Shown here one piece after another: positions 47,088 to 60,509 of a stretch of 61,023 nt of DNA. The translations under genes and the position numbers were made by a program. The stretch spans positions 1 through 61,023 of the forward strand of contig DATGPC010000050.1 of the NCBI GenBank assembly GCA_035305265.1, written 5' to 3'. A model generated the notes under the pieces. The model was given only the letters and a program-made list of their open reading frames with translations. It was not told where the DNA came from and ran no database searches. How positions within the stretch are numbered: the first letter of the stretch is position 1; the number at the start of each line of letters is the position of its first letter. This DNA comes from Thermomicrobiales bacterium. GTDB taxonomy: Bacteria; Chloroflexota; Chloroflexia; Thermomicrobiales; UBA6265.

Positions 47088-48269
47088 TCACGCCTCGAGC
47101 GCGCGGGACAGGGCCTCAACGAGCGTATCAGCGTGCTCGCGCTCCCAGATCATCGGCGGCAGGAACCGGATCACGAGCGACCCGGCGGGCAGCGCCAGCA
47201 CGCCATGCTCCTGCAGCGCACGCAGCACCGGCGTGGCCTTCTGCTTCAGCTCGATGCCCAGCATCAGCCCCTCACCACGCACCGCGCGGATCTTCGGGCT
47301 CCCGATGGCCTCGATCTGCTGTTTTGCATACGCGCCAACATCCGTTGCACGCGTATACAGGTCATCCTCGCGCAGGATGCGGAGCGTCTCCGTTGCGCCG
47401 CGGGAGACGAGCGGATTCCCGCCGAACGTCGAGCCGTGCGCCCCGGCCGGGATCGCCTCGCTGATCGTTTCCGTCACGAGCGTCAGGCCGATCGGCATCC
47501 CGTTGGCAAGGGCCTTCGCCGTCGCGAGGATATCGGGCACCACGCCCTTCGCCACGCCGGCGAACGGCGCCCCGGTCCGGAAGCCGGACTGCACCTCATC
47601 GAACATCAGCAGCGCACCGTGCTGCGTCGCCAGCTCGCGGGCCTTCTGGAGCCATGCCGGGTCGGCGGGATGGATACCGCCTTCTCCCTGTACCGGCTCG
47701 AGGATCACCAGCGCCGTCGTCTCGTCGATCGCCGACTCGAGCGCTTCGAGATCGTTGAAGGAAACATGCGTCGCCTCCATCGCGAACGGCTCGAATGGCG
47801 CCCGGTACTTCTTGTCCGCGGTCGCGGCGAGCGCGCCCATCGTCCGGCCGTGGTACGCGCGCTTCGCGGCGACAATACCAGTGCGGCCGGTCGCGGCACG
47901 GGCGAACTTGATCCCCGCCTCGATCGCCTCGGTTCCGGAGTTGCTCAGGAACGCGCGCCCCAGCCCTTCCGGCGCGATGGTGCCGATCTCCTCCAGCAGC
48001 GCCGATCGGGCGTCGTTGTAGAAGCTCTGGTGGCAGGTCGTGAGCAAGCCGAGCTGATCGGTCACCGCCGCCGTGAAACGCGGATGCGCGTGCCCCAGCA
48101 CCGCGACGCCGTAGTTGCTCATCGCGTCGAGGTACCGGTTCCCCTCGCTATCGAACAGCCAGGCGCCCTCACCGCGCACCAGCGCGATGTCCCGCTTCGC
48201 GTACAGCGGAATCTGCTTCTCGCGGTCGAGCTGCGCGATCGATTCGGTGGTCATTGTGTCAGTCATCAT
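47088..48269 (-). CDS. lysJ: Class III aminotransferase: acetylornithine / [LysW]-aminoadipate-semialdehyde transaminase
   Basis: GHAHPR, SNSGTEAIE, LMFDEVQSGFRTG and the ATAKALANG PLP-Lys context (ArgD/LysJ family). Confidence 0.85.
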   Translation of the reverse strand: MMTDTMTTESIAQLDREKQIPLYAKRDIALVRGEGAWLFDSEGNRYLDAMSNYGVAVLGHAHPRFTAAVTDQLGLLTTCHQSFYNDARSALLEEIGTIAPEGLGRAFLSNSGTEAIEAGIKFARAATGRTGIVAAKRAYHGRTMGALAATADKKYRAPFEPFAMEATHVSFNDLEALESAIDETTALVILEPVQGEGGIHPADPAWLQKARELATQHGALLMFDEVQSGFRTGAPFAGVAKGVVPDILATAKALANGMPIGLTLVTETISEAIPAGAHGSTFGGNPLVSRGATETLRILREDDLYTRATDVGAYAKQQIEAIGSPKIRAVRGEGLMLGIELKQKATPVLRALQEHGVLALPAGSLVIRFLPPMIWEREHADTLVEALSRALEA

Positions 48270-48357
48270 AGTCCTCAAGAAGCCAAAAAAAGCGCTCGCC
48301 GCCCATGAAAAAGTTTGTCATTCTGAGCGGAGCGAAGAATCCCCGTGCGAAGCACAT

Positions 48358-49005
48358 TCAATCGCGCGAAACGCGTTCCTTATTCAATCGCCGCACGAGA
48401 TCCGGCACCTCCGCGAGCGAGTCGATCCGGTGCCGCACCTGCTCCATCTCCGGCCACCCTGCGTGGAGATAGCCCCACGGGCCTCGCCGGATGAACACAG
48501 CGTGCATCCCGATCTCCTGCGCCGGCAGGATGTCGTTGTCGATACGGTCGCCGACGTACATCACCTCAGCCGGCTCCATCTCCAGCTCATCGGCCATCCG
48601 CCGGAAGAAGGCCGGGTCCGGCTTCGTCACGCCCCATGACGTCGAGGACGCGTTGAGCGTCAGCGGAAGACCGAGGTCCGCCATCTGCTCGATAGCGCCG
48701 GACGGCTGGTTCCCCGCCACGCCAAGCACGAACCCCTGATGGCTCAGGCGCTTCAGCGTCGGGACTACATCCGGGTACAGGTCGCGGCTCTCGATGCGGT
48801 AACCAATGATGTTCGGGTCGACCGACTCGATCTGCATCACGTTGAAGAGGCTGCGATGGCTCTCCCGCCGCTCGATCAGGCCGCCCAGCACGCCATGCAA
48901 AGTCAACTCGGGGACACCGGCGTAGGCCGCCACCGATGACCAGAACCTGGTCTCGTTGACGAGCGTCTCGCCCTGGTCGAATACGATCGCCCGAATCGTT
49001 GTCAT
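48358..49005 (-). CDS. HAD-superfamily hydrolase
   Basis: Motif I VFDQGET, motif II GVAGNQ, motif IV YVGDRIDND. 4-nt ATGA overlap with the upstream lysZ. Confidence 0.8.
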   Translation of the reverse strand: MTTIRAIVFDQGETLVNETRFWSSVAAYAGVPELTLHGVLGGLIERRESHRSLFNVMQIESVDPNIIGYRIESRDLYPDVVPTLKRLSHQGFVLGVAGNQPSGAIEQMADLGLPLTLNASSTSWGVTKPDPAFFRRMADELEMEPAEVMYVGDRIDNDILPAQEIGMHAVFIRRGPWGYLHAGWPEMEQVRHRIDSLAEVPDLVRRLNKERVSRD

Positions 49006-49826
49006 GCCACCTTCTTCCCCGCCCGAACGACGGTGCCCTCACCTGCCAGTGCCCGCGTCACAGGTTGTTCGACGCGAGCATCGGCGAAGATCACTTGCTC
49101 GACACCCTTCTCGACCGCCTTGATCGCCTGCTCGACCTTCACGACCATGCGTCCGGCCGCCGCGGCGAGCGCGCCTTCGGCATCCGAGGCGTCGATCTCG
49201 CGAACCAAAGTGCTCTCATCATACCGGTCCTGGAGCAATCCCGGCGTATCGGAGAAGAAGAGCAAGCCCCGCGCGCCCATCGCTTCGGCGAGTCCGAGTG
49301 CGAGCTTGTCGCCGTCGAAGTTGATCGGCACGCCGCCCTCCGACAGGCCTGGCGGCGAGACGAGGACGACGAACCCGGCGTCCATCAGCGTCGTGATGAC
49401 GGTCGGATCGAAGTCCTTGACGCTCCCGGCGTGGTCGTCGCGCAGGACCTTCATCTTGCCGTCGATGTCGGTGCCACGGATCTCCGCCTTGCGCTTGCCG
49501 AAGGCGATGCCGCCATCGATCGCGCTGAGCCCAACCGCATTCACGCCCTGGGCCCGGAAATCGGCCACGGCATGCTTGTTCACCTTGCCGCAGTACGCCA
49601 TGAGCATGGCATCCATCGTCTCGGCGTCGGTGTAGCGGCTCTCGCGGCCGCTCTTCGAGGTGATCTTGCGCACGGGAAGCCCGAGTGCCTCGCAAAGCTG
49701 GCTGAATTCCGCGTTCCCGCCATGCACGATCACCACCGGCTCATCGAGCGTGGCGATATCCTTCGCGAACCGCGTGTACACATCGGCGCCGATCCCCGCG
49801 CCGCCTCCGATTTTGACCACAAGCAT
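49002..49826 (-). CDS. lysZ: [LysW]-aminoadipate / acetylglutamate kinase family
   Basis: MLVVKIGGGAG, VIVHGGN and amino-acid-kinase fold motifs. Short form (274 aa) typical of LysZ. Confidence 0.85.
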   Translation of the reverse strand: MLVVKIGGGAGIGADVYTRFAKDIATLDEPVVIVHGGNAEFSQLCEALGLPVRKITSKSGRESRYTDAETMDAMLMAYCGKVNKHAVADFRAQGVNAVGLSAIDGGIAFGKRKAEIRGTDIDGKMKVLRDDHAGSVKDFDPTVITTLMDAGFVVLVSPPGLSEGGVPINFDGDKLALGLAEAMGARGLLFFSDTPGLLQDRYDESTLVREIDASDAEGALAAAAGRMVVKVEQAIKAVEKGVEQVIFADARVEQPVTRALAGEGTVVRAGKKVA

Positions 49827-49978
49827 GAAACGTTCTGCCTCTTTCGCGCCTACGCGCCGGACACAAGGTCCGGCGGTACGGATGTCCTTGCGTACCGCCG
49901 GACCTCGCAGCCGCGGCCGGTGTCCGGCGCAATGGAGCGGAGGGCTTTTCGCCCTCCGCCCGTACGCGAAGCGATTGG

Positions 49979-51028
49979 CTAAATCGGGTGCAGGCCCGGG
50001 AACTCCAGCCCGGTCTTCTCCGGGAAGCCCATTCGGATGTTCATCGACTGCACCGCCTGCCCCGAAGCACCCTTCATCAGGTTGTCCAGCGCAGCCATGA
50101 CGACAACGCGGTTCGAATGCTCATCGCGCTCGAAGCCCACGTCGCACCAGTTCGACCCACTCAGGAGCTTCGGCTCCGGATAACGGTGAACGCCGGTGTT
50201 CTCCTTCACCAGCCGCATGAACGGCTCGTCCTTGTACGCCTCGCGGTAGATCTTCCGCAGCCTCTTGTCGTCGAGGTCTTCCTTCAGGAAGACGTGGGAT
50301 GTCGCCAGGATGCCCCGCACGGCCTCGATCGACGTCGCCGAGAAGCTCACCTTCGGCGTCTCGCCGTGGAACGTCAGCTCCTGGATGATCTCCGCGCTGT
50401 GCCGGTGGCCGGTCGGCTTGAACGAGCGCATTGCGCCGCTCCGCTCGGCGTGGTGCGAGGCCACGCTCGGCGATCCCCCGGAGCCGGACGAGCCGGTCTT
50501 CGCCTCGACGATCACCGGCATCTCCAGGTCGACGACGCCAGCCATGAAGAGCGGATAAAGCCCGAGGATCGTCGTTGACGACATGCAGCCAGGAGACGCG
50601 ATCCAGTCCGCCGACTCGATCTGCTTCCGGTGTAGCTCCGGCATGCCGTAGACGAACGTGCCGAGCGCGTCCAGGTCCTCATGCTCGTGGCTATACCACT
50701 TCGGATAGTCACCGGCGTTGTTCAGCCGGAAGTCCGAACTGAGGTCGATCACGACCGGCGCGAGATCCCGCACCTTCGGCAGCATCTTCATCGAGACGCC
50801 GTGCGGCAGCGCGAGGAAGAGCACGTCGCAGGGCTCGAGCTTGTCGCTGGAGACGAACTTCAGGTCGGTGACGCCTCGCAGGTTCGGGTGCGTGCTCTTC
50901 ACGAACTTGCCGGCCTGCCGCTCCGAGGTGACCTGCTTCAGGGCGACCTCCGGGTGGAACAGCAGCAGCCGAACCAGCTCGCCGCCAGCGTAGCCAGACC
51001 CGCCGATCACAGAAACGTTGAGACTCAT
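49979..51028 (-). CDS. lysY: N-acetyl-gamma-glutamyl-phosphate / [LysW]-aminoadipyl-phosphate reductase
   Basis: [12 protein letters not shown] Rossmann start and SPGCMSTT active-site Cys (ArgC/LysY). Confidence 0.9.
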
Positions 51029-51933
51029 ACCGCTATTTCCTCCGCCTGGACCTGTCGCCTGGCTCGATTCCCCTCGCCGACGGCGAGCACGTAATCAATG
51101 ATCTTCGCCGGGATATCGACCCCGGTCGTGTGGATGGAGTTCCGGAACTCCATCGTGTAGTTCACTTCGTTGACCTGCAGTCCCTGGTCGGTCTCGAACA
51201 GGTCAACCGCAACCACCCCGCCGCCAACCGCCTGCGCCGCCCGGAGGGATACCTCGGACAGCTCCGGTGTCACTGGGCAGTTGCTCGCCTGCCCACCGCG
51301 TGCCGTGTTCGTGATCCAGTGCGGCGAGTCCCGGTAAATCGCGCAGATGGTCTCATCGCCTACCACGAACGACCGGATGTCCCGACCATTCTTCTCGACG
51401 TACTCCTGGATATAGAACGCGCCGTGATGGAACGACCCCAGCGTCACCTTGTGCTCCAGTAGCGCCTCGGCCGCGTCGCGGTCGTTCACCCGCGCCAGCA
51501 GCCTGCCCCACGACCCGATCGCCGGCTTGAGCACCACCGGATACCCCAGCTCCTCGATCGCCTCGATGGCCGACTCCGGCGTGTAGGCGATCCGCGTCCG
51601 TGGCATCGGCACGCCGTGTCGAGCCAGGGCCTGCGTCGTCAGCAGTTTGTCGCCGCAGATGTTCGCGACCTCGTACATGTTGACCGTCGGGATGCCCCAG
51701 TCGTTCAGCGTCCGCATCGTATACATCGCGCGCAGGTGGTTGATGCAACGCTCCAGCACGACGTCGCAGGCCATGAGCTCCGGATCCGGATGCACCGGAT
51801 CGAGCGTCAAGGTCCGGTCATCGAACCGAACGACCTCCACGCCCCGGCGCTCCAGCTCCGCGAGCAGCAGCTTTTCTTCCACGCGAACCCGCGACATGAG
51901 AATCCCCACGCGCGGAGAGTGTTCCTGTACCAT
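51025..51933 (-). CDS. lysX: RimK-type ATP-grasp ligase, LysX/ArgX family (copy 1, intact motifs)
   Basis: [55 protein letters not shown] and VAVDLFE...VNEVN. 4-nt overlap with lysY. Start at MVQEHSPR (51933). Confidence 0.85.
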
Positions 51934-52250
51934 CCGGAACGTCCTTTCCCGGCGCCCTGATGCGCCGGCGAACTGCACACGGCCCACCTCGTCAAGAGGA
52001 CGGGGGCCGCTCCGTGGTACCACCTCTGTTCGCGTGCTCCTCACAGATGCACGCCTTGGCGAGTGCGCGCCCGCGCACCCACGCCCGATAACGGAGGCTG
52101 CCGACCGGGTCTACTGACCGGGCGATTCTCGCCCGGCGTTCTTCCGGTTGCTCGGGGACCTTCATGTGACCACCCATGCCGCGACGCTCTCACCGTCTCG
52201 TCGCTCGCTGGGGCCGGGTTACCGGCCACATGTTCCCGTCAACGCAGGTA
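51934..52250 (-). promoter_or_regulatory. T-box riboswitch leader (non-canonical specifier loop) with predicted SD sequestration
   Basis: Minus strand: AG bulge AGCGA (52209..52205), distal loop GGUGAGA (52194..52188) closed by GCGACG/CGUCGC, specifier-side loop GAAGGUC (52163..52157), F-box-like CCGUUA. T-box core AACAGAGGUGGUACCACGGA (52030..52011). CGUCCU (52002..51997) is complementary to SD AGGACG (51945..51940). Confidence 0.75.
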
Positions 52251-52272
52251 TTCGGTTTTCAGGTTGCTTCGT

Positions 52273-52291
52273 CCTGCACCACGCGTGCAAG
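52273..52291 (-). repeat. Copy c of a conserved spacer hairpin (CTTGCAC-GCGTG-GTGCAGG)
   Basis: Shares the stem and loop pattern with 53323..53345 and 55319..55339 (one stem mismatch). Lies upstream of T-box leader 1. Confidence 0.5.
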
Positions 52292-52346
52292 ACATCGACC
52301 GCAAATCGATAGATAACCCAGCGCAATGCGGCGCCTGCGGGTCCGA

Positions 52347-52367
52347 TCCCGGACACATGGTCCGGGA
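52347..52367 (-). terminator. Hairpin after the lysX-like copy 2 stop (no U-tract)
   Basis: 7-bp stem TCCCGGA / TCCGGGA with a 7-nt loop, 10 nt after the stop codon. May separate the two T-box-controlled units. Confidence 0.35.
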
Positions 52368-52376
52368 CTACGAAGA

Positions 52377-53291
52377 TTACCCGACACCCGCCGCCGTCAA
52401 CGGGTCCATCACCCGCTCACGCGCCACCCGCGCCGCCTCCTCGACAATCTCTCCCGCGATATCACGGTCGGTCGTCGTCATCAGGCCCTTGAACTCGCCG
52501 CCGGTATTGATCTCGATGACCTTCAAGCCGTCATCGGTCTCGATCAGGTCGACACCAGCGAGCCGCGCCCCGACGACCTCGCAGGCCCGCAGGGCAAGCT
52601 CCTCGATCTCCGGCGTCACCGGACACGGTACCGACACCGCGCCCCGCGCCGCATTCGTGATCCAGTGCTCCGACGTGCGATACGACGCCGCGACGATCTT
52701 CCCGCCGACAACGTAGGCGCGAATATCCCGTCCCGGTTTCTCGACGTACTCCTGGATATAGAAGATTTCGTGATGGAAGGAGCCATGCTCGGACTTCTGC
52801 TGGATGATCGCCCGGGCCTGGTCCGGACCGTTCACCTTCGAGATGAGGCGACCCCAGGAGCCCGCGACCGGTTTCAGCACCGCCGGGTACCCGAGCTGCT
52901 CGCACGCCTCCAGCGCCGACTCCACCGAGTAGGCGACGAAGGTCTTCGGCGACGGTATCCCCGCCGCCTCCAGCACCATGCTGGCTCGGGCCTTATCGTC
53001 GCAGATCGTCACTGCCGCCGCGCTGTTCAGCGTTGGCACGCCCCATCGATTCATCGCCCAGAGCGTGTAGCCGGCGCGGGAGTGAACGACGCTGCGGTCC
53101 AGCATGACATCGACATCGACTCCACTCTCGGCGGCCGTCGGCGCCGACAGGTTCAGCGTCAGGTTGCGGTCGAAGACCGGCGTGACGATCATGCCGCGCG
53201 CCCGTGCCGCCGCGAGGATCAATTTCTCTTCCTGCCGGAGATAGGAGACGAGCACTCCGAGCCGGAGCCCCGCCCCACGTTCCTGTGACAT
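52377..53291 (-). CDS. RimK-type ATP-grasp ligase, LysX/ArgX family (copy 2, intact motifs)
   Basis: [56 protein letters not shown] and GVDLIE...VIEINT. Confidence 0.85.
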   Translation of the reverse strand: MSQERGAGLRLGVLVSYLRQEEKLILAAARARGMIVTPVFDRNLTLNLSAPTAAESGVDVDVMLDRSVVHSRAGYTLWAMNRWGVPTLNSAAAVTICDDKARASMVLEAAGIPSPKTFVAYSVESALEACEQLGYPAVLKPVAGSWGRLISKVNGPDQARAIIQQKSEHGSFHHEIFYIQEYVEKPGRDIRAYVVGGKIVAASYRTSEHWITNAARGAVSVPCPVTPEIEELALRACEVVGARLAGVDLIETDDGLKVIEINTGGEFKGLMTTTDRDIAGEIVEEAARVARERVMDPLTAAGVG

Positions 53292-53322
53292 GTATTTTTC
53301 CTTATCAGAGGAGCGCTCCGTC

Positions 53323-53345
53323 GTCTCGCACCATGCGTGCGAGAC
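53323..53345 (-). repeat. Copy a of the conserved spacer hairpin (GTCTCGCAC-GCATG-GTGCGAGAC)
   Basis: Perfect 9-bp stem in the 66-nt spacer between lysK and lysX-like copy 2. Confidence 0.55.
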
Positions 53346-53357
53346 ATGGCCCCGGGC

Positions 53358-54420
<1,063 letters not shown>

Positions 54421-54443
<23 letters not shown>

Positions 54444-55278
54444 CGCGTGCCTCCTGGACCGCGCCCGACGGGGAGACCAGCGCGGCAATGGCTTCCGCCA
54501 CCGTCTTCGTTCCCAGCAACGTGCTCTTGCGGAACTCGGCCACCGGGATCGCATCCCAGACAACCAGCTCGCCTTCAATCGTCGCGATCTCGATCGCCAC
54601 CACGGCAGCGCCGATCACATTCGCCGCCTTGCACGCAAGGTCGGTCATCGCTGCGGACGGAATCGGCCCGTCGTACGCGACAGCCTCGCCGCCCACCACG
54701 TGAATACGATGCAGATGCTCATCCGACGGCGCGCCGGCCTGGACGAGAATGACAGCCTCATCCGCGCTGCCCAGAACGATCCGGTGCTCGATGACCGCAT
54801 CAGCGGTATCCGCATCATGCAGCGTCGTCGACGCGGTTCCCGGGATCATCGGCAGCAGCGTGGCGGGATAGCCCACCATACCGGCCGCCTGAACACCGGT
54901 CGCCTCGGAGAAGGCGATCATCGTCTTCGGCCGCGGAAGCCCCGCTCGAGTCAGGGCCGTGGCGACTTCCTGACGGTTCCTCGTCGACGCCAGGCCGGCA
55001 TCGATGACCCGCACGCCGGACTGGCGAAGCAGCCTGGCAAACGGCCTGGCCACCTGCCGGTTCGTCGACCGGTCAATGATCACGCCATCGGCGCCGAGGA
55101 TACCGGCGTCGGAGGAGTCGCCCAGCGCCGCGATGTCCTGCGGCGCCGGGCACGGAGGCAAGGGCAGGCTCATGGGGGATACCGGCATCGCCACCGCTCC
55201 GGCCTCGCCGAAGGCGGTGATGAGCTGCTTCTCTTCCACACGAACGCGCGCGCAAAGCACGCCGACTGCCGTTGCCAT
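54421..55278 (-). CDS. Degenerate LysX/RimK-like ATP-grasp paralogue (predicted catalytically inactive)
   Basis: The N-terminus VGVLCARVRVEEKQLI aligns with both LysX copies. The motifs are replaced: GYPATLLPMIPGTAS for [14 protein letters not shown], ILVQAGAPSDEHLHR for [14 protein letters not shown], IEIAT...VWDAI for VDLxE...ExN, and there is no NTARGG. The frame is intact with high GC3. Confidence 0.7.
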
Positions 55279-55318
55279 GTCCGTTGACTTCTCCTTGCGA
55301 GGTCATATCCTCGCGTAG

Positions 55319-55339
55319 CCTCGCACCATGTGTGCGAGG
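55319..55339 (-). repeat. Copy b of the conserved spacer hairpin (CCTCGCAC-ACATG-GTGCGAGG)
   Basis: Perfect 8-bp stem in the spacer between lysW and the degenerate ATP-grasp gene. A second hairpin GCGAGG/CCTCGC sits next to it (about 55295..55315). Confidence 0.55.
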
Positions 55340-55367
55340 AATCGGCCACAGGCGGATATTCGGGCGA

Positions 55368-55535
55368 CTACTCGCCCCAGTCCTCGCCCTCTTCCGGCGC
55401 CAGCGCGAGCGTCACCGGATCGGTGCTTACAACTTCGAGATCCGCGCCACAATCACCGCACGGCACGATCTCGCCAACCTCAACGCCTTCGACCTCGACC
55501 TCGGCGTCACACTCGGGGCAAACTGCGGTAGCCAT
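55368..55535 (-). CDS. lysW: Amino-group carrier protein LysW
   Basis: 55 aa. Zinc-ribbon CPECDAEV...CGDCGADL and an acidic tail ending EEGEDWGE. AAGGGAAGG RBS upstream. Confidence 0.85.
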   Translation of the reverse strand: MATAVCPECDAEVEVEGVEVGEIVPCGDCGADLEVVSTDPVTLALAPEEGEDWGE

Positions 55536-55601
55536 TGCTGAACCTTCCCTTTCATCAATCCCTGGATCACGGCCGATCGCCGGACCTGACATACCTACGC
55601 G

Positions 55602-56678
55602 TTAGCTCTTGTCCATGACGGCCGAGGCATCGGACACCGTCGGGATGTCCTCACTCGTACGCTCGTCATGCAGCACCTGCAGCAGCACCGCCTTGTGGAC
55701 ATGCAGCCGCCCTTCGGCCTGGTCGAAGATGATCGACTGCGGGCCATCCGCAACCTCCGGCTCGACCTCCTGTCCGCGGTGCAACGGCAGGCAGTGCATG
55801 AAGACCGCCTCCGGTTTCGCGTGTGCCATGACCTCCCTGGTCACCCGGTAGGGCGCCAGCGCGACCAGTTTTCCCGGATTCTCCTGCTCGCCCATGCTCT
55901 CGTGCACATCGGTATAGACCGCATCCGCACCGTCCGCCGCCTCGAACGCCGAATCGACGAACTCCAATTTGGCACCGGTCTGCGCCGCAATCGCTTGCGC
56001 TTCGGCGACCACGGCCGGCTCCGGCGCGTAGTCCTTCGGCGTCGCGACGGACATGTTCACGCCGCTGGATGCCATCGCCAGCATCAGTGAATGGCAGACA
56101 TTGTTGCCATCACCCAGATAGGCGAATTTCAACCCGGTGAGGGTCCCGAAGTGTTCATACAATGCGAAAACGTCGCTCAACGCCTCGAGCGGGTGATCGT
56201 GCGAGGTCAGGGCGTTGAACACCGGCACCGTCGCGCCGCCGGCGAACTCATCCAGGTCGGCCGGGTCCGCGATGCGCGCGGCGACCGCATCGACGTAGCG
56301 GCTGAAGATCCGCGCCGTGTCCCCGATCGTCTCGCCTCGCTTGAGCTGCAGGTCCTGGATCCCAAGGAAGATCGCCTGCCCGCCCAACTGCTCCATCCCC
56401 GCCTGGAACGCCGTCCGCGTTCGCGTGCTCGGGTGCTGGAAGATCATCCCCAGCGTCTTGCCGCCCAGCCACGGATGCGGCTCCCCCGCCACGCGCATCG
56501 CCTTGAGCGTAAGCGCGGTCTCCAGGATCGCGGTGCGCTCGTCCGGGCTGAGATCGGTGTCGCGCAGGATGGACTTGCCGCGAAGCGATCCTGTCAGGAC
56601 CATTTCCTTGATCTCGCCGTCTCGCACCTGCTGGATCCTTCGTTCTTGCGTGGTGGTAGCTGTCGACACTGCGCTCAT
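55602..56678 (-). CDS. argF: Ornithine carbamoyltransferase-like protein (copy 1)
   Basis: FQHPSTRTR, LKRGETIGDTA, HPLEALSD, GDGNNV, DVHESMG and HCLPLHRGQEV. Confidence 0.8.
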   Translation of the reverse strand: MSAVSTATTTQERRIQQVRDGEIKEMVLTGSLRGKSILRDTDLSPDERTAILETALTLKAMRVAGEPHPWLGGKTLGMIFQHPSTRTRTAFQAGMEQLGGQAIFLGIQDLQLKRGETIGDTARIFSRYVDAVAARIADPADLDEFAGGATVPVFNALTSHDHPLEALSDVFALYEHFGTLTGLKFAYLGDGNNVCHSLMLAMASSGVNMSVATPKDYAPEPAVVAEAQAIAAQTGAKLEFVDSAFEAADGADAVYTDVHESMGEQENPGKLVALAPYRVTREVMAHAKPEAVFMHCLPLHRGQEVEPEVADGPQSIIFDQAEGRLHVHKAVLLQVLHDERTSEDIPTVSDASAVMDKS

Positions 56679-56688
56679 CCGGCTTCCC

Positions 56689-57783
56689 CTAGCACATCGT
56701 GTGCACAAGAAGCGCCTTGTGCATGTGAAGCCGGTTCTCGGCCTGGTCGAAGATCACCGACTGCGCACCATCGGCGACGTCGGCGGCGACTTCCTCGTCC
56801 CGGTGCATCGGCAGGCAGTGCATGAAGATCGCATCCGGCGCGGCCTTGGCCATGACATCGGACGTCACCTTGTACGGCGCGAGCGCAACGGCCCGGTTCG
56901 CGGCATCCATCTGGCCCATGCTGACGTGCACGTCGGTATAGACCGCGTTGGCGTCCTTCGCTGCCTCATACGGATCCGTCGTGACCTCGATCGTGGCGCC
57001 GGTGGACGAGGCGATCCACTGCGCGTGCTTCACCACGGCAGGATCGACCTGGTAGTTGGATGGGGCGGCGACCGAGACGCTGACGCCCATCGCGGCGCCG
57101 GAAAGCATGAGCGACGACGCCATATTGTTGCCGTCCCCGAGGTAGGCCAGCTTCAGCCCCTTCAGCTCTCCAAAGTTCTCCTGGAGCGTCATGAGGTCGG
57201 CCAGCGCCTGCAGCGGATGGCAGAGATCGGAAAGACCGTTCATGACCGGGATGGTCGCGGACGTCGCAAGCTGGATGAGGTCGTTGTGGTCCGCGACGCG
57301 GGCAACGATGGCATCCACGTACCGGCTGAGGATCTGCGCCGTATCGCCGATCGTCTCCCCCCGCTTCATCTGCAGGTCATTCACGCCGAGGAAGATCGCC
57401 TGGCCACCCAGCTGCGCCATGCCCGCCTCGAGCGAGACGCGGGTCCGGGTGCTCGGGTGCTGGAAGATGAGGCCAAGGGTCTTTCCGGTCAGGTAATGAT
57501 GCGGCTGGCCGGTCTTGGCGAGTCGCTTCAGCCGAACAGCGGTATCGACCAGCTCGGCGATCTCGTCCGGCGTGAGGTCGGTGTCGACCAGCACATGCCG
57601 CCCCCGCAGCCGGGTGCTGACGGAGAACGCCGGCAATGACTGCACCTGCGGGCCGCCGAGCAGCGAGGTGCGGTCCGACGCCGGGCCGGAGAGCTTCTGG
57701 CTCACGGACGGCACGGACCGAAGCTCCGGCGTGACATGCGGCAGGGCGGAATCGTCGACTGTGGTGGTGACCTGGTTCTGCAT
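56689..57783 (-). CDS. Ornithine carbamoyltransferase-like protein (copy 2, about 65-aa N-terminal extension)
   Basis: FQHPSTRTR, MKRGETIGDTA, HPLQALAD, GDGNNM, DVHVSMG and HCLPMHRDEEV. AAGGGAG RBS 6 nt before ATG 57783. Confidence 0.8.
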   Translation of the reverse strand: MQNQVTTTVDDSALPHVTPELRSVPSVSQKLSGPASDRTSLLGGPQVQSLPAFSVSTRLRGRHVLVDTDLTPDEIAELVDTAVRLKRLAKTGQPHHYLTGKTLGLIFQHPSTRTRVSLEAGMAQLGGQAIFLGVNDLQMKRGETIGDTAQILSRYVDAIVARVADHNDLIQLATSATIPVMNGLSDLCHPLQALADLMTLQENFGELKGLKLAYLGDGNNMASSLMLSGAAMGVSVSVAAPSNYQVDPAVVKHAQWIASSTGATIEVTTDPYEAAKDANAVYTDVHVSMGQMDAANRAVALAPYKVTSDVMAKAAPDAIFMHCLPMHRDEEVAADVADGAQSVIFDQAENRLHMHKALLVHTMC

Positions 57784-58103
57784 GGTGGACTCCCTTTGGT
57801 TCTGGTTCTTTCCTGCGAAAAGCCGCAGACGCCAGGTCGACTGGCCAATATGGCCTGTCGAACCAAAGGGGCGAGAGACGTCGAATCCCGCGGTACCACC
57901 CTTCTTGCGCGGCGAGCGCCACGCATCTCTCGGCTGTTGCTTCCATGGGAGCCACCCATCCGGACCTACTTGCGCGAACGCGCTTTCTTCGGCCGGCCGC
58001 TCATGGGCGCGTTCGGCGATCCTGCGCTGGTCCCGGGCTTCCACCGTCCCCGGGTCGCTATGGCGCATGAACCGCGTACTGGTCCCAGTCATCGCGGGCG
58101 GTG
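57784..58103 (-). promoter_or_regulatory. T-box riboswitch leader, Arg specifier (CGC), with predicted SD sequestration
   Basis: Minus strand: GAUGA K-turn (about 58093..58089), AGUA (58080..58077), AG bulge AGCGA (58059..58055), distal loop GGUGGAA (58045..58039), specifier GAA-CGC-G (58014..58008). T-box core AAGAAGGGUGGUACCGCGGG (57906..57887). CCUUUGGUUC (57869..57860) is complementary to GAACCAAAGG (57802..57793), which covers the SD. Confidence 0.85.
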
Positions 58104-58589
58104 TCCCGACAAACGGACACCAGGCACATGAGGTTGTGAGAAAAGACGAAGTTGCGGAAAGCGCTAACGGTGTTCGGCCGCTAGCGCGTCGTACGGTCGC
58201 GACGCGCGAGCGGCGTTCGGGGATGGAGGGCAGGTGACCATCCCAACACCTTGCTTGTACTGGAATCTGTGCTGATCATCGTGTGCTCCGTTGAGGAGAT
58301 AGGAAAACCGAAGGATCGACAACCCGAAAACGTTACGGACGGCGACGAGGCTCGTCCGCAGGCCTGGGCCTGGGGTCGATACGACGATCGGTTCGACGGA
58401 GCATGGTCATGATGGTCAAATACTTTCTTGCGTGCCGTTTGAGTTCCACAAACAGCGATTCGGCGTCCACGAGACACCCCACCCGGCACTCGCGATCTCC
58501 CAATCGGGATGGCATGTCACGAGCACGAGGTCAGCGTAATGGACCACGAACGCGGATGTCAAGTGAAAGAGCCATCGCCGGGCCGATGG

Positions 58590-58842
58590 CTATTCGTCAT
58601 CGTCCCCGAAGAGCGTCAGGGACCACGCTTCGCGGTTGATCTCCGTCGCGTAGCCAGAGGGGCGCATGATGAGCCCACCACCGCTGGTCGTCGCCACCGG
58701 CACCGTCTCGCCGATCTCGGTTGGGCATCAGCCCTGCATCCACACGACAGGATCGGTCTCTTCAATTTCACGCGTAGAGCATCGCAATCGTTTCACATAA
58801 ACCGACCAGCGCATCCTTCATCCGCCCGCAATCAATAGTCAT
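58590..58842 (-). pseudogene. Possible decayed small gene (one frameshift plus one in-frame TGA)
   Basis: ATG 58842 gives MTIDCGRMKDALVGLCETIAMLYA then a stop. A shifted frame continues REIEETDPVVWMQG-TGA-CPTEIGETVPVATTSGGGLIMRPSGYATEINREAWSLTLFGDDDE to TAG 58592..58590. A hairpin GCCATCG/CGATGGC plus a T-rich tail follows. Confidence 0.3.
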
Positions 58843-58942
58843 TGTTCGTAGTCGTGTCTAAATTTGTCTTTGTTATGCGTCTTAACTAGTGAAGACATCT
58901 TTGGTCTTCGTCGCATTGGTTTTCGCTCGGAGGAGAGATGCA

Positions 58943-59707
58943 ATGAGCGCGGAACGGAATGAGATGATTATTCGTGCCAGTATTTCTGACATCGCAGGAG
59001 TTGCCGACAGAGACGAGAGACCTCTGGAGATTGGCTACTACCTCGCCTTCGATGATCGCTGTGGTACTTGCATTTATCTCGCTCAAGAGATTCGAAAGAT
59101 CACCTCGAAGATAGCCACGATCGGCTTCTCTGATCGAAGAGTCTCTGCCCTACTCCAGGAACTAGAAATGGATGAGTCTATGATTCGTCCAACTATGTTT
59201 CGCGTGGAATCGAGAGAAACCCAAGCCTGGACTGGTTATGGCCTGATGGCAAAACTAGCCACTGTACTTGGCCCGCGAGACTCTTTCAGAATCGCTCGCT
59301 TGATCGGCGACATGGAAGCGTCACGGTCAACTGATGACTCCACAAAGTCGAGGCTGCTGCGCAGGGATTTTGTCAAGGGCTTGGCAGGAGCGGCTGCGGG
59401 ATTAGCCTTGGTCAACACAGCGCGATCTAGTGCTTCAGCCGATGATTTGTCCAATTGCGAGAGCTGGGTGCCCGACTCTGTAGCCCACAATTACAACTAC
59501 ATTGTGGAAGAACCCGCTAACTGCCGTCGCTGCCCATACACGTGGTCCCCAGAAGCAACGACGCTGAGCCAAGGTGTAGTGGTAGGCGTCCGAGAAATGG
59601 TGGCGAGTCAGGATGCCTTCGGAATCGGTAACCCGTATTGGTTCCGGACCCGTGGTCAAAAAGGCTGTTGGGTGTACGGGCCGCTTCTGAGCGACAACCC
59701 GGTTTAG
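58943..59707 (+). CDS. Hypothetical two-part protein: N-terminal CxxC domain, internal twin-arginine signal, Cys-containing C-terminal domain
   Basis: GGAGGAG RBS before ATG 58943. FDDRCGTCIYLAQEI CxxC motif. Residues about 124-165 (counted from ATG 58943), MEASRSTDDSTKSRLLRRDFVKGLAGAAAGLALVNTARSSASA, form a complete Tat signal in frame (ATG 59312). Low-GC region. Confidence 0.6.
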   Translation: MSAERNEMIIRASISDIAGVADRDERPLEIGYYLAFDDRCGTCIYLAQEIRKITSKIATIGFSDRRVSALLQELEMDESMIRPTMFRVESRETQAWTGYGLMAKLATVLGPRDSFRIARLIGDMEASRSTDDSTKSRLLRRDFVKGLAGAAAGLALVNTARSSASADDLSNCESWVPDSVAHNYNYIVEEPANCRRCPYTWSPEATTLSQGVVVGVREMVASQDAFGIGNPYWFRTRGQKGCWVYGPLLSDNPV

Positions 59708-59733
59708 AGCCCTATTTTCCTGTCCGACTTAAC

Positions 59734-59766
59734 TCGGGCGGCTCGCCTCATTGGCGAGCCGCCCGA
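59734..59766. terminator. Bidirectional terminator hairpin
   Basis: 14-bp perfect stem TCGGGCGGCTCGCC / GGCGAGCCGCCCGA between convergent genes. Confidence 0.75.
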
Positions 59767-59942
59767 ACCGCCTTAGCGACACCGCGGACAGCGATGAGTG
59801 TGACTATTTGAGCCGTTGCCAGAGCCGCGGTCGCGCAACAACGAGACGCTGATACTCAATACAATGCTCCTCGTGCAGGTCCTTTCATGTTCGCTCTAGA
59901 CGCGGTCGTAAAGTAACTGAAACGGTGGCAGATCTGATGGCC

Positions 59943-60509
59943 TCAAAAAGCATCAAAGAGTTGGTTCGCGCTTGCCTGCTCCCATATCTTCTGTTTTATT
60001 CTCGTGAGCCGCTTCGACATACCAGCAACTGAACTGGAATGCCTCTCCGCAAGTTCTCTAGCGCTGAATCCAAAGAGAACATTCTCAATCAGCAGGATCC
60101 GGCTCTCGTGATCCACCATCTGCAATATCACTCCAACGGTTGACTCCCCAAGCACTATTGACGTCACAAATCTCTCCCAGGATTCGTTAGGGACACTCTC
60201 ATCCGGCAAGAGATCCAAACTCACGTTCTGGTTGTCACGCTTTCGTAGATGATCGTGATACTCATTCACGGCGATCGTCTTTGCCCAGCCAAAGAAACTC
60301 CCAGAAATGTGAAGCCGATTGAGCTGAAGGATGCATCTGGTGAGCGCGTTATGAGTGATTTCCTCAGCTAGTACAGGGTCTTCCGTTCTTGAAACGACTA
60401 CGGGATACGTCCTCTTGACACCTTGCTCGTACAGCAATTCGCAAGCATGCTCGTTACCTGCGAGACATCGCTTAACAAATACAGCAATAGCATCTGTCGC
60501 CGTGTCCAT
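59943..60509 (-). CDS. ECF-type sigma-70 family sigma factor
   Basis: Region 2 FFGWAKTIAVNEYHDHLRKR and region 4 HTH FSARELAERHSSSVAGMSKRLTRIKQKI. Low-GC codon usage. Confidence 0.75.
   Translation of the reverse strand: MDTATDAIAVFVKRCLAGNEHACELLYEQGVKRTYPVVVSRTEDPVLAEEITHNALTRCILQLNRLHISGSFFGWAKTIAVNEYHDHLRKRDNQNVSLDLLPDESVPNESWERFVTSIVLGESTVGVILQMVDHESRILLIENVLFGFSARELAERHSSSVAGMSKRLTRIKQKIWEQASANQLFDAF

What the first reader, a model, noticed from the sequence alone, without database searches (positions are those of the whole stretch)
54421..55278. Third LysX-like ATP-grasp paralogue with eroded catalytic motifs, wedged between lysW and lysK
The 285-aa product aligns end to end with the two intact ligases (VGVLCARVRVEEKQLI versus [16 protein letters not shown]). 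Every motif I associate with ATP/Mg binding in RimK/LysX enzymes is substituted:
- VLKP becomes TLLP (Lys lost).
- GSWG becomes GTAS.
- [13 protein letters not shown] becomes ILVQAGAPSDEHLHR.
- NTARGG is absent.
- VDLFE...NEVN becomes IEIAT...VWDAI.

The reading frame is intact, GC3 is high, and its stop overlaps the lysK start by 23 nt with a good internal RBS. It therefore looks maintained, not decaying.

A non-catalytic LysX fold could act as a LysW-binding adaptor, chaperone or regulator. I know of no described role for such a protein.
Basis: partly seen in the sequence, partly recalled or inferred. Interest (0 to 1): 0.65.

Follow-up and report, generated by a model that had tools for sequence, protein, structure and literature searches.

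The report
Catalytically dead LysX paralogue beside lysW
This gene encodes an intact, expressed and selectively maintained copy of the LysX ligase that has lost every residue needed to use ATP; it is kept between lysW and lysK across a whole bacterial order (Thermomicrobiales), so it is probably a non-enzymatic helper of carrier-protein-based lysine/arginine synthesis whose role nobody has described.

Summary
Window 54421-55278 (-) encodes a 285-aa protein with a LysX/ArgX ATP-grasp fold (Foldseek TM about 0.7). It lacks the ATP-phosphate Lys, the GSWG loop, the adenine-hinge Glu, the whole N-T-A-R-G-G catalytic loop (13-residue deletion) and the Mg ligand Asn.

It is not decaying:
- dN/dS is 0.13-0.19 in close species pairs.
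- 39 residues are invariant across 60 homologues.
- The ORF is intact in about 35 species-level genomes.
- It lies on the same metatranscriptome contig as lysK.

- The protein is not a recent third copy. It belongs to an old, monophyletic clade of degenerate LysX proteins that always sit in the order lysW-X-lysK-lysX throughout Thermomicrobiales.
- One member, from Sphaerobacter thermophilus, already has an unpublished crystal structure (PDB 5I47).
- The lysK start codon overlaps the 3' end of this gene by 17-32 nt in 33 of 34 close orthologous loci.

Best reading (confidence 0.4): a pseudoenzyme that still binds the LysW tail and works with LysK. Heteromerisation with the live ligase is the main rival. 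No function has been described. I classify it as a new variant of a known kind.

The parts
54421..55278 (-). Degenerate LysX paralogue ('X3'), 285 aa. It has a LysX/ArgX ATP-grasp fold but lacks the ATP, Mg and catalytic residues.
55291..55296 (-). Shine-Dalgarno-like AAGGAG, 12 nt upstream of the X3 ATG.
   Evidence: Read directly from the sequence.
54421..54455 (-). Translational-coupling junction. AGGAGG (54455-54450) and the lysK ATG (54443-54441) lie inside the X3 coding sequence, giving a 23-nt overlap with the X3 stop.
   Evidence: The overlap of 17-32 nt is conserved in 33 of 34 X3-clade loci.
55368..55535 (-). lysW, the amino-group carrier protein (55 aa, ending EEGEDWGE).
   Evidence: Pfam PF21344 and TIGR01206 are both above cutoff. 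The start codon was read.
53358..54443 (-). lysK, the [LysW]-lysine/ornithine hydrolase (M20 family). It is translationally coupled to X3.
   Evidence: NF003367 scores 405.6 bits against a cutoff of 363.
52377..53291 (-). Intact ligase LysXa. Its specificity motif is Y-S-A-GL, which is ArgX-like. It is the orthologue of the single live ligase in 5I47-type operons.
   Evidence: TIGR02144 scores 301 bits.
51025..51933 (-). Intact ligase LysXb. Its specificity motif is F-I-T-NS, the LysX type. It groups with Thermus LysX and is present only in the X3 sub-lineage.
   Evidence: TIGR02144 scores 344.8 bits. The motif definition comes from PMC12998189.
47088..51028 (-). The rest of the operon: lysY (49979-51028), lysZ (49002-49826), a HAD hydrolase (48358-49005) and lysJ (47088-48278).
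55602..58092 (-). Two tandem ornithine carbamoyltransferase paralogues upstream of lysW.

Best explanation
X3 is a pseudoenzyme: a LysX-derived ATP-grasp protein that can no longer bind ATP/Mg or form an acyl-phosphate, but is kept as a protein.

The most likely mechanism is as follows. Its vestigial active-site cleft still accepts the acidic C-terminal tail of LysW, either free or carrying its cargo. Because it is made in fixed proportion with LysK through translational coupling, it serves the release end of the pathway. It may present LysW-gamma-ornithine/lysine to the hydrolase, or hold freed LysW for reloading by the live ligases.

Shown here: the fold, the loss of catalytic residues, purifying selection, the order-wide conserved position, the conserved overlap with lysK, and transcription.

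Inferred only: binding of LysW, and cooperation with LysK.
For: **Fold**
- The AlphaFold model (pLDDT 78, pTM 0.79) best matches LysX 3VPD, ArgX-LysW 3VPB, LysX/ArgX-LysW 5K2M and 5I47, at TM 0.66-0.71.

**Catalytic loss**
- K129, GSWG, K141, E170, D178, N202/R205/G206 and N251 are all absent in 60 of 60 X3-clade sequences.
- By motif alignment (my inference) they correspond to the RimK ADP contacts K141, E178, I180, S212 and N213 listed in PMC10092738.

**Selection**
- dN/dS is 0.13-0.19 in pairs with dS of 0.36-0.6. LysXa shows 0.02-0.04 and LysK 0.05-0.12.
- pN<pS with p<1e-17 in eight pairs.
- 39 columns are invariant.

**Antiquity**
- The gene order lysW-X-lysK-lysX holds in 36 X3-clade loci and in four loci of the 5I47-type and deeper branches.
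- The degenerate clade is monophyletic in 96% of bootstraps.

**Retained binding elements**
- R191 aligns with Thermococcus LysX R173 and RimK R189. [quoted passage not shown]
- It is kept in 75% of the X3 clade, 97% of the 5I47 clade and 100% of the third branch.
- R10, K14, R55, K89, K155 and K257 (Thermus numbering) stay basic in every clade. The basic residues that are lost are mostly those of the ATP/phosphate and catalytic motifs (K129, R137, K141, R205).

**Coupling to lysK**
- The start codon lies 17-32 nt inside X3, behind a Shine-Dalgarno sequence, in 33 of 34 loci.

**Expression**
- Compost metatranscriptome contigs from four studies cover X3, and in three runs from two of those studies one contig spans lysK and X3.
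- The lysW contig is 2-4 times deeper in the two runs with continuous coverage, which argues against plain DNA carry-over.
Against: - No binding evidence of any kind was obtained.
- The protein is more acidic than the live ligases (median pI 4.95 against 5.4-5.5), and LysW is itself very acidic.
- R191 is replaced in a quarter of the clade.
- The best-conserved segments are the N-terminal RVRVEEK motif and the central-domain helix DTADAVIEHRxxLG. In RimK the ATP-binding (central) domain contacts the N-terminal loops of the neighbouring subunit (PMC10092738). Their conservation may therefore reflect oligomerisation, not LysW docking.
- In Sphaerobacter-type operons the overlap with lysK is replaced by a 77-nt gap.
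- Thermus LysK is reported to act on LysW conjugates without a helper (my own knowledge, not checked here).
- Evolutionary-rate correlation did not single out LysW or LysK.
Confidence: 0.4

Rival explanations
1. X3 is a non-catalytic subunit that forms a hetero-oligomer with the live ligase (LysXa, and possibly LysXb). It would stabilise or tune that enzyme, as dead paralogues do in many enzyme/pseudoenzyme pairs.
For: - Every operon with a degenerate X also carries a LysXa-type ligase two genes downstream.
- The sequence most strongly shared between X3 and live LysX is the N-terminal motif and the central-domain helix. In RimK tetramers, the ATP-binding (central) domain contacts the N-terminal loops of the partner subunit (PMC10092738).
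- The partial rate correlation with X3 is highest for LysXa (0.58).
- A precedent in the held literature is the Ser4/Ser5 heterooligomeric aminotransferase (PMC11726168, abstract).
Against: - The rate correlation is barely above the OTC2 control (0.40), so it discriminates nothing.
- Translational coupling is to lysK, not to the ligase.
- X3 evolves 4-8 times faster than LysXa, which is unusual for an obligate partner.
- No interface was examined.
Confidence: 0.22
2. X3 is a small-molecule sensor. The remnant amino-acid pocket binds lysine, ornithine or arginine, and the protein then sequesters LysW or inhibits a pathway enzyme. That would provide feedback control in a pathway that has no obvious allosteric step.
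For: - Positions equivalent to the LysX substrate-specificity motif are remodelled, not randomised. His is invariant at position 182, and Asp/Glu occupies position 192 in 87% of the X3 clade and about 91% (Glu 88%) of the 5I47 clade. The motif is defined in PMC12998189.
- An acidic residue there would suit a basic side chain.
- No riboswitch or attenuator was found in the window.
Against: - The alignment next to the 13-residue deletion is the least certain part.
- The invariant His is specific to the X3 sub-clade; the 5I47 clade has Val or Ala there.
- There is no ligand evidence.
Confidence: 0.1
3. X3 has no function as a protein. The open frame is kept only because ribosomes must read through it to reach the overlapping lysK start.
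For: - The overlap with lysK is almost universal.
- X3 is the fastest-evolving gene of the cluster: 41-69% identity where its neighbours keep 63-94%.
- Apparent dN/dS rises to 0.4-0.7 in distant pairs.
Against: - Read-through alone would constrain stop codons, not amino acids.
- Close pairs give dN/dS of 0.13-0.19, 39 residues are invariant, and specific motifs persist between clades that are only about 26% identical (structural alignment).
- The high values in distant pairs coincide with saturated dS.
- Sphaerobacter-type operons keep the gene without the overlap, and that protein folds well enough to crystallise (5I47).
Confidence: 0.08
4. X3 is still a ligase, or another enzyme, using an unconventional active site.
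For: - Two acidic residues at the former Mg sites survive: D/E230 and the invariant D242.
- Together with the invariant H193 and D/E203 they could in principle form a metal site.
Against: - No phosphate-binding Lys, no GSWG loop, no hinge Glu and no Asn ligand remain, and the catalytic Arg loop is deleted.
- The protein scores 69 bits against the 275.6-bit LysX cutoff.
- No ATP-grasp enzyme is known to work without these elements (my own knowledge).
Confidence: 0.03

Closest known systems
LysX / ArgX, the [LysW]-aminoadipate and [LysW]-glutamate ligases (RimK-type ATP-grasp; PDB 3VPD, 1UC8, 3VPB, 5K2M)
   Same: - Three-domain fold at TM about 0.7.
- End-to-end alignment.
- Residence in a lysW operon.
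- Shared N-terminal R-x-R-x-E-E-K motif, E-H-K/R helix, Gln169, the tail-binding Arg of D-I-R, and the E-F-K/R motif.
   Different: - All ATP, Mg and catalytic residues are lost, and the catalytic loop is deleted.
- It scores far below the family cutoffs.
- It evolves 4-8 times faster.
- It carries a conserved proline-rich insertion at residues 32-62 that is predicted to be disordered.
PDB 5I47, 'RimK domain protein ATP-grasp' from Sphaerobacter thermophilus DSM 20745 (structural-genomics entry; no paper found)
   Same: - It is the best sequence match among solved structures (E 2e-22 with the family profile).
- It belongs to the same monophyletic degenerate clade.
- Its close homologues (95% and 56% identical) hold the same position between lysW and lysK.
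- It shares the loss of GSWG, K141, E170, R205, E249 and N251.
   Different: - Identity is only about 26% (structural alignment).
- In its clade the phosphate Lys is kept in 66% of members, and a longer non-canonical loop stands where X3 has a 13-residue deletion.
- It still reaches the Pfam RimK model.
- Its operon has one live ligase, not two, and in Sphaerobacter there is no overlap with lysK.
RimK (ribosomal protein S6 poly-glutamate ligase)
   Same: - Same superfamily and fold.
- The Arg that binds the acidic C-terminus is conserved (PMC10375531).
   Different: - RimK is an active ATPase and ligase, with K141, E178, I180, S212 and N213 contacting ADP (PMC10092738). By motif alignment, X3 has none of the equivalent residues.
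- The genomic context is different.
Non-catalytic ATP-grasp-fold proteins in general (for example eukaryotic synapsins and TTLL12; recalled from my own knowledge, not tested here)
   Same: An ATP-grasp fold kept for a binding or regulatory role and not for ligation.
   Different: These are eukaryotic and unrelated in sequence and context. Some still bind ATP, whereas X3 has lost the nucleotide contacts.

Membership tests
LysX/ArgX [LysW]-amino acid ligase (TIGR02144; Pfam PF08443 + PF22626) | Three-domain ATP-grasp fold of the LysX type | tested here: met
   Foldseek top hits are 3VPD, 3VPB, 5K2M and 5I47, with E 1e-13 to 2e-15 and TM 0.66-0.71.
LysX/ArgX [LysW]-amino acid ligase (TIGR02144; Pfam PF08443 + PF22626) | Score at or above the curated family cutoffs | tested here: not met
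   TIGR02144 scores 69.1 bits against 275.6. There is no PF08443 hit. PF22626 scores 23.6 against 27.
LysX/ArgX [LysW]-amino acid ligase (TIGR02144; Pfam PF08443 + PF22626) | ATP phosphate-binding Lys (V-L-K-P), the G-S-W-G loop and the second Lys | tested here: not met
   K129 is L/M/F, GSWG is deleted or replaced, and K141 is T/A/S in 60 of 60 clade members.
LysX/ArgX [LysW]-amino acid ligase (TIGR02144; Pfam PF08443 + PF22626) | Adenine/ribose hinge Q-E-Y-V-E | tested here: not met
   The motif is Q-A-G-A-P. Only the Gln is retained.
LysX/ArgX [LysW]-amino acid ligase (TIGR02144; Pfam PF08443 + PF22626) | Catalytic loop W-I-T-N-T-A-R-G-G with the catalytic Arg | tested here: not met
   The loop is absent through a 13-residue deletion in all X3-clade sequences.
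LysX/ArgX [LysW]-amino acid ligase (TIGR02144; Pfam PF08443 + PF22626) | Mg ligands Asp, Glu and Asn (D237, E249, N251) | tested here: not met
   The equivalents are D/E, Asp (invariant), and Leu/Val/Ile.
LysX/ArgX [LysW]-amino acid ligase (TIGR02144; Pfam PF08443 + PF22626) | Arg that binds the C-terminal residue of LysW (D-I-R; Thermococcus R173) | tested here: met
   R191 is present in the window protein and kept in 75% of the clade.
LysX/ArgX [LysW]-amino acid ligase (TIGR02144; Pfam PF08443 + PF22626) | Gene located in a lysW operon | tested here: met
   It lies directly downstream of lysW in every locus examined.
LysX/ArgX [LysW]-amino acid ligase (TIGR02144; Pfam PF08443 + PF22626) | ATP-dependent ligation of Glu or AAA to LysW | not testable with these tools
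   This needs an enzyme assay.
Pseudoenzyme (dead paralogue kept for a non-catalytic role) | Clear homology to an active enzyme family together with loss of essential catalytic residues | tested here: met
Pseudoenzyme (dead paralogue kept for a non-catalytic role) | Purifying selection on the protein sequence | tested here: met
   dN/dS is 0.13-0.19 and pN<pS with p<1e-17. 39 residues are invariant.
Pseudoenzyme (dead paralogue kept for a non-catalytic role) | Expression | tested here: inconclusive
   Metatranscriptome contigs from several studies cover the gene together with lysK. Depth differs from lysW. These are assembled contigs that may include DNA, and there are no protein-level data.
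Pseudoenzyme (dead paralogue kept for a non-catalytic role) | A demonstrated non-catalytic function (binding, scaffolding or regulation) | not testable with these tools
No biochemistry is available.
5I47-type degenerate LysX clade of Thermomicrobiales | Common ancestry with the Sphaerobacter 5I47 protein, separate from the live ligases | tested here: met
   The degenerate clade is recovered in the NJ tree with 96% bootstrap support. Long-branch attraction cannot be excluded with this method.
5I47-type degenerate LysX clade of Thermomicrobiales | Conserved position lysW-X-lysK-lysX | tested here: met

The most novel reading that the evidence does not exclude
The degenerate LysX is a dedicated 'reader' of loaded LysW. 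Its remodelled pocket (invariant His193, Asp/Glu203, Asp242, and Arg191 and Arg250 kept) would recognise LysW-gamma-ornithine/lysine. Together with the translationally coupled LysK it would form a two-protein release module. That would be the first case of a ligase-derived pseudoenzyme serving as the substrate-recognition subunit of a carrier-protein hydrolase in amino-group-carrier-protein metabolism.
Probability: 0.15. Interest if true: 0.75.

Novelty: new variant of a known kind. Interest (0 to 1): 0.55.

Why it matters
LysW-mediated lysine and arginine synthesis is treated as a closed set of five enzymes plus the carrier. [quoted passage not shown] Such a protein could show how carrier-bound intermediates are handed between enzymes, or how flux is shared between the lysine and arginine branches.

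It is also easy to test. Sphaerobacter thermophilus is cultured, and a crystal structure of its family member (5I47) already exists without an assigned function.

For annotation, these proteins are currently labelled either 'hypothetical' or, wrongly, '[LysW]-L-2-aminoadipate ligase'.

Tried and rejected
- **Complex modelling.** I built a paired X3-linker-LysW alignment (22 species) to model the complex.
- **Mirror-tree test.** I computed partial correlations of pairwise dN with X3: LysXa 0.58, LysK 0.49, LysW 0.08. The unrelated control OTC2 gave 0.40, so the method does not discriminate between partners.
- **Papers on LysW complexes.** The JBC papers describing the LysX-LysW, LysZ-LysW and LysY-LysW interfaces are not held. 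The LysW-docking residues of the globular domain therefore could not be mapped.
- **Literature.** Searches for 5I47, for a LysX pseudoenzyme, and for LysW in Thermomicrobia found nothing relevant.
- **Regulatory elements.** An Rfam scan of the whole window found no riboswitch or leader. The promoter/terminator scan of the operon was at chance level.
- **'Residues present but shifted'.** Rejected: three independent alignments agree.
- **'Pseudogene'.** Rejected on dN/dS, invariant residues and order-wide retention.
- **Apparent frameshift in L005.** It comes from the same MAG series (MFD) as L020, where frameshifts in other genes (lysK, lysXb) are also seen. I read them as assembly errors and excluded the affected genes from the dN/dS analysis.
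Full report
**1. What is there**

The minus strand of window 47088-58092 carries one gene cluster. In order of transcription:
- two ornithine carbamoyltransferase paralogues (56689-58092 and 55602-56708)
- lysW (55368-55535)
- the gene in question, called X3 here (54421-55278, 285 aa)
- lysK (53358-54443)
- two intact LysX-family ligases: LysXa (52377-53291) and LysXb (51025-51933)
- lysY, lysZ, a HAD hydrolase and lysJ

X3 starts at an ATG that follows AAGGAG. The lysK ATG lies 23 nt inside the 3' end of X3, six bases after AGGAGG. GC3 of X3 is 0.80, against 0.83-0.90 for its neighbours.

**2.

X3 aligns end to end with both ligases. The key substitutions are the same in three alignments: a MAFFT family alignment, an HMMER profile alignment to Thermus LysX (3VPD), and an L-INS-i alignment of 196 sequences.

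In Thermus numbering:
- K129 of V-L-K-P is Leu.
- G-S-W-G133-136 is shortened and replaced.
- K141 is Thr.
- Q-E-Y-V-E has become Q-A-G-A-P.
- D178 is lost.
- The loop W199-G207, with N202 and the catalytic R205, is deleted (13 residues).
- The Mg ligands D237, E249 and N251 read Glu, Asp and Ile.

By motif alignment (my inference) these correspond to the positions that contact ADP in RimK (K141, E178, I180, S212, N213; PMC10092738).

Family models agree with this picture:
- There is no Pfam RimK-domain hit.
- The pre-ATP-grasp domain scores below its cutoff.
- X3 scores 69 bits on the NCBIfam LysX model, whose cutoff is 275.6. The paralogues score 301 and 345.

The fold is nevertheless that of LysX. 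The AlphaFold model (pLDDT 78, pTM 0.79) is weak only at residues 1-11, 34-62 and 271-285. It best matches LysX 3VPD, ArgX-LysW 3VPB, LysX/ArgX-LysW 5K2M and 5I47, at TM 0.66-0.71.

**3. It is maintained, and it is old**

*Distribution.*
- A search of 5.8 billion proteins found 214 relatives. All that carry a taxonomic name come from Thermomicrobiales.
- An exhaustive profile search of 1.84 billion cluster representatives found only 58 clusters at E<=1e-30 and 393 at E<=1e-3, so the family is small and sharply diverged.
- A scan of one genome per species returned 38 loci. All but two whose record titles give no taxon and one ordinary Chloroflexaceae LysX are labelled Thermomicrobiales, Sphaerobacteraceae, Chloroflexia or Chloroflexota.

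*Synteny.* In those loci the order OTC2-OTC1-lysW-X3-lysK-lysXa-lysXb-lysY-lysZ-HAD-lysJ is essentially invariant. X3 is 41-69% identical to the window protein, where its neighbours are 63-94%.

*Selection.* For species pairs with unsaturated dS (0.36-0.6):

| Gene | dN/dS |
|---|---|
| X3 | 0.13-0.19 |
| LysXa | 0.02-0.04 |
| LysXb | 0.01-0.02 |
| LysK | 0.05-0.12 |
| HAD | 0.11-0.16 |

In eight close pairs pN<pS with p<1e-17. Thirty-nine columns are invariant across 60 sequences. The gene is therefore under purifying selection, relaxed about four- to eight-fold relative to the live ligases.

**4. Relation to PDB 5I47 and the history of the gene**

The closest solved structure by sequence is 5I47, 'RimK domain protein ATP-grasp' from Sphaerobacter thermophilus (E 2e-22 with the family profile). 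It was released in 2016, and no paper in the library cites it.

Its relatives come from Sphaerobacter, Thermomicrobiaceae and Nitrolancea. They, and a third more divergent branch, occupy the same slot. Four loci read lysW, degenerate X, lysK, one intact ligase, lysY, lysZ, lysJ.

In a neighbour-joining tree:
- All degenerate proteins form one clade (96% of bootstraps).
- LysXa groups with the single live ligase of the 5I47-type operons (78%).
- LysXb groups with Thermus and Chloroflexaceae LysX.

The specificity motif defined by the Nishiyama laboratory (PMC12998189) reads F-I-T-NS in LysXb, which is the LysX type. In LysXa it reads Y-S-A-GL, which is closer to the ArgX type.

The loss of GSWG, K141, E170, R205, E249 and N251 is shared by the whole degenerate clade. 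The X3 branch has in addition lost K129 and deleted the loop.

The likely history is therefore this. An ancestral Thermomicrobiales operon already contained a dead ligase next to lysW and a live ArgX-like ligase after lysK. The lineage of this window later added a LysX-type ligase, the OTC pair and the HAD gene. X3 is not 'the third copy that eroded'. It is the oldest resident of that slot.

**5. What survives, and what that suggests**

Positions that stay basic in every clade, live or dead, are R10, K14, R55, K89, K155, R180 and K257. Basic residues lost only in the dead clades are R61, K129, R137, K141, K174, R177, R194 and R205; K129, R137, K141 and R205 lie in the ATP/phosphate and catalytic motifs.

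R180 (X3 R191) aligns with Thermococcus LysX R173 and RimK R189. [quoted passage not shown] It is kept in 75% of the X3 clade, 97% of the 5I47 clade and 100% of the third branch.

Two specificity positions are remodelled, not randomised:
- His is invariant at position 182 (X3 clade only).
- Asp/Glu occupies position 192 in 87% of the X3 clade and about 91% (Glu 88%) of the 5I47 clade.

The lysK start codon overlaps X3 by 17-32 nt, usually 20 or 23, behind a Shine-Dalgarno sequence, in 33 of 34 X3-clade loci. It also overlaps in two of the deeper branches. Sphaerobacter-type operons have a 77-nt gap instead.

Compost metatranscriptome contigs from four studies cover X3. In three runs from two of those studies a single contig runs from the 5' end of lysXa through lysK and X3. 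In the two runs with continuous coverage the lysW contig is two to four times deeper, which is not what DNA carry-over would give.

**6. Interpretation**

I commit to a pseudoenzyme that still accepts the LysW tail and works with LysK at the release step (confidence 0.4).

- Shown: the fold, the catalytic loss, selection, antiquity, coupling to lysK and transcription.
- Inferred: binding.

Weaknesses of this reading:
- There are no binding data.
- The protein is acidic (pI about 4.95).
- The tail-binding Arg is only partly conserved.
- The two most conserved shared segments (the N-terminal motif and the central-domain helix) lie in the two regions (N-terminal loops and ATP-binding domain) that form a subunit contact in RimK.

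The main rival is therefore a heteromer with the live ligase (0.22). It is followed by a ligand-sensing regulator (0.10), a frame kept only for ribosome delivery to lysK (0.08), and residual catalysis (0.03).

**7. Comparison with what is known, and novelty**

X3 works on the LysX scaffold but fails six of the defining features of LysX membership. It should not be annotated as a [LysW]-aminoadipate ligase, as some sources do.

It is a new variant of a known kind: a dead subfamily of LysX/ArgX, restricted to Thermomicrobiales, with one orphan crystal structure and no assigned role.

It is moderately interesting. It does not overturn the pathway, but it adds an unexplained, conserved and experimentally tractable component to it.

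Noticed in passing
window 55602-58092 (-): Two tandem ornithine carbamoyltransferase paralogues sit directly upstream of lysW. Both score above the NCBIfam OTC cutoff. The pair is conserved across the X3 clade, but loci L028 and L034 have only one, and the 5I47-type operons have none. The upstream copy has an N-terminal extension of about 60 residues before the OTC domain. Why two are kept is unexplained.
   Followed up: partly
window 48358-49005 (-): A HAD-family phosphatase gene is embedded between lysZ and lysJ, overlapping the lysZ stop by 4 nt. It is conserved in most X3-clade operons (absent from L032 and L033) and absent from L039, L042 and L043. A phosphatase inside a pathway with an acyl-phosphate intermediate is curious.
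   Followed up: partly
window 51025-53291 (-): The two live ligases carry different specificity motifs. LysXb has F-I-T-NS (LysX type, aminoadipate). LysXa has Y-S-A-GL, which matches neither the published ArgX motif (I-Y-V-GF) nor the bifunctional motif (Y-I-T-NA) exactly.
   Followed up: partly
window 55279-55367: The lysW-X3 spacer is 89 nt here. In the 5I47-type operons (L039, L040, L042, L043) it is only 6-8 nt. No terminator or known RNA element was found in it.
   Followed up: partly
window 55368-55743 versus 53014-55349: In two compost metatranscriptomes the contig covering lysW is 2-4 times deeper than the contig covering X3 and lysK. This suggests a separate or more stable lysW transcript.
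   Followed up: no
window 55184-55095 (X3 residues 32-62): X3 carries a proline-rich insertion (consensus PVPPASxPLPPGPA followed by a variable stretch) relative to live LysX. Its first half is conserved, yet the whole stretch is predicted to be disordered (pLDDT below 50).
   Followed up: no
window 55521-55535 and 55264-55278: LysW and X3 both begin with the pentapeptide MATAV, encoded by different codons. This is probably coincidence.
   Followed up: no
window 58001-60000: G+C drops to 0.56, against 0.61-0.69 in the rest of the window. The region holds an ORF with no Pfam match (58889-59707) and a sigma-70 region-2 protein (59943-60509). It may be a foreign insertion bordering the operon.
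   Followed up: no
L005 10001-10802; L020 10881-14264: Apparent frameshifts occur in X3 (L005) and in lysK and lysXb (L020). Both loci come from the same MAG series (MFD). I read them as assembly errors, not gene decay.
   Followed up: partly
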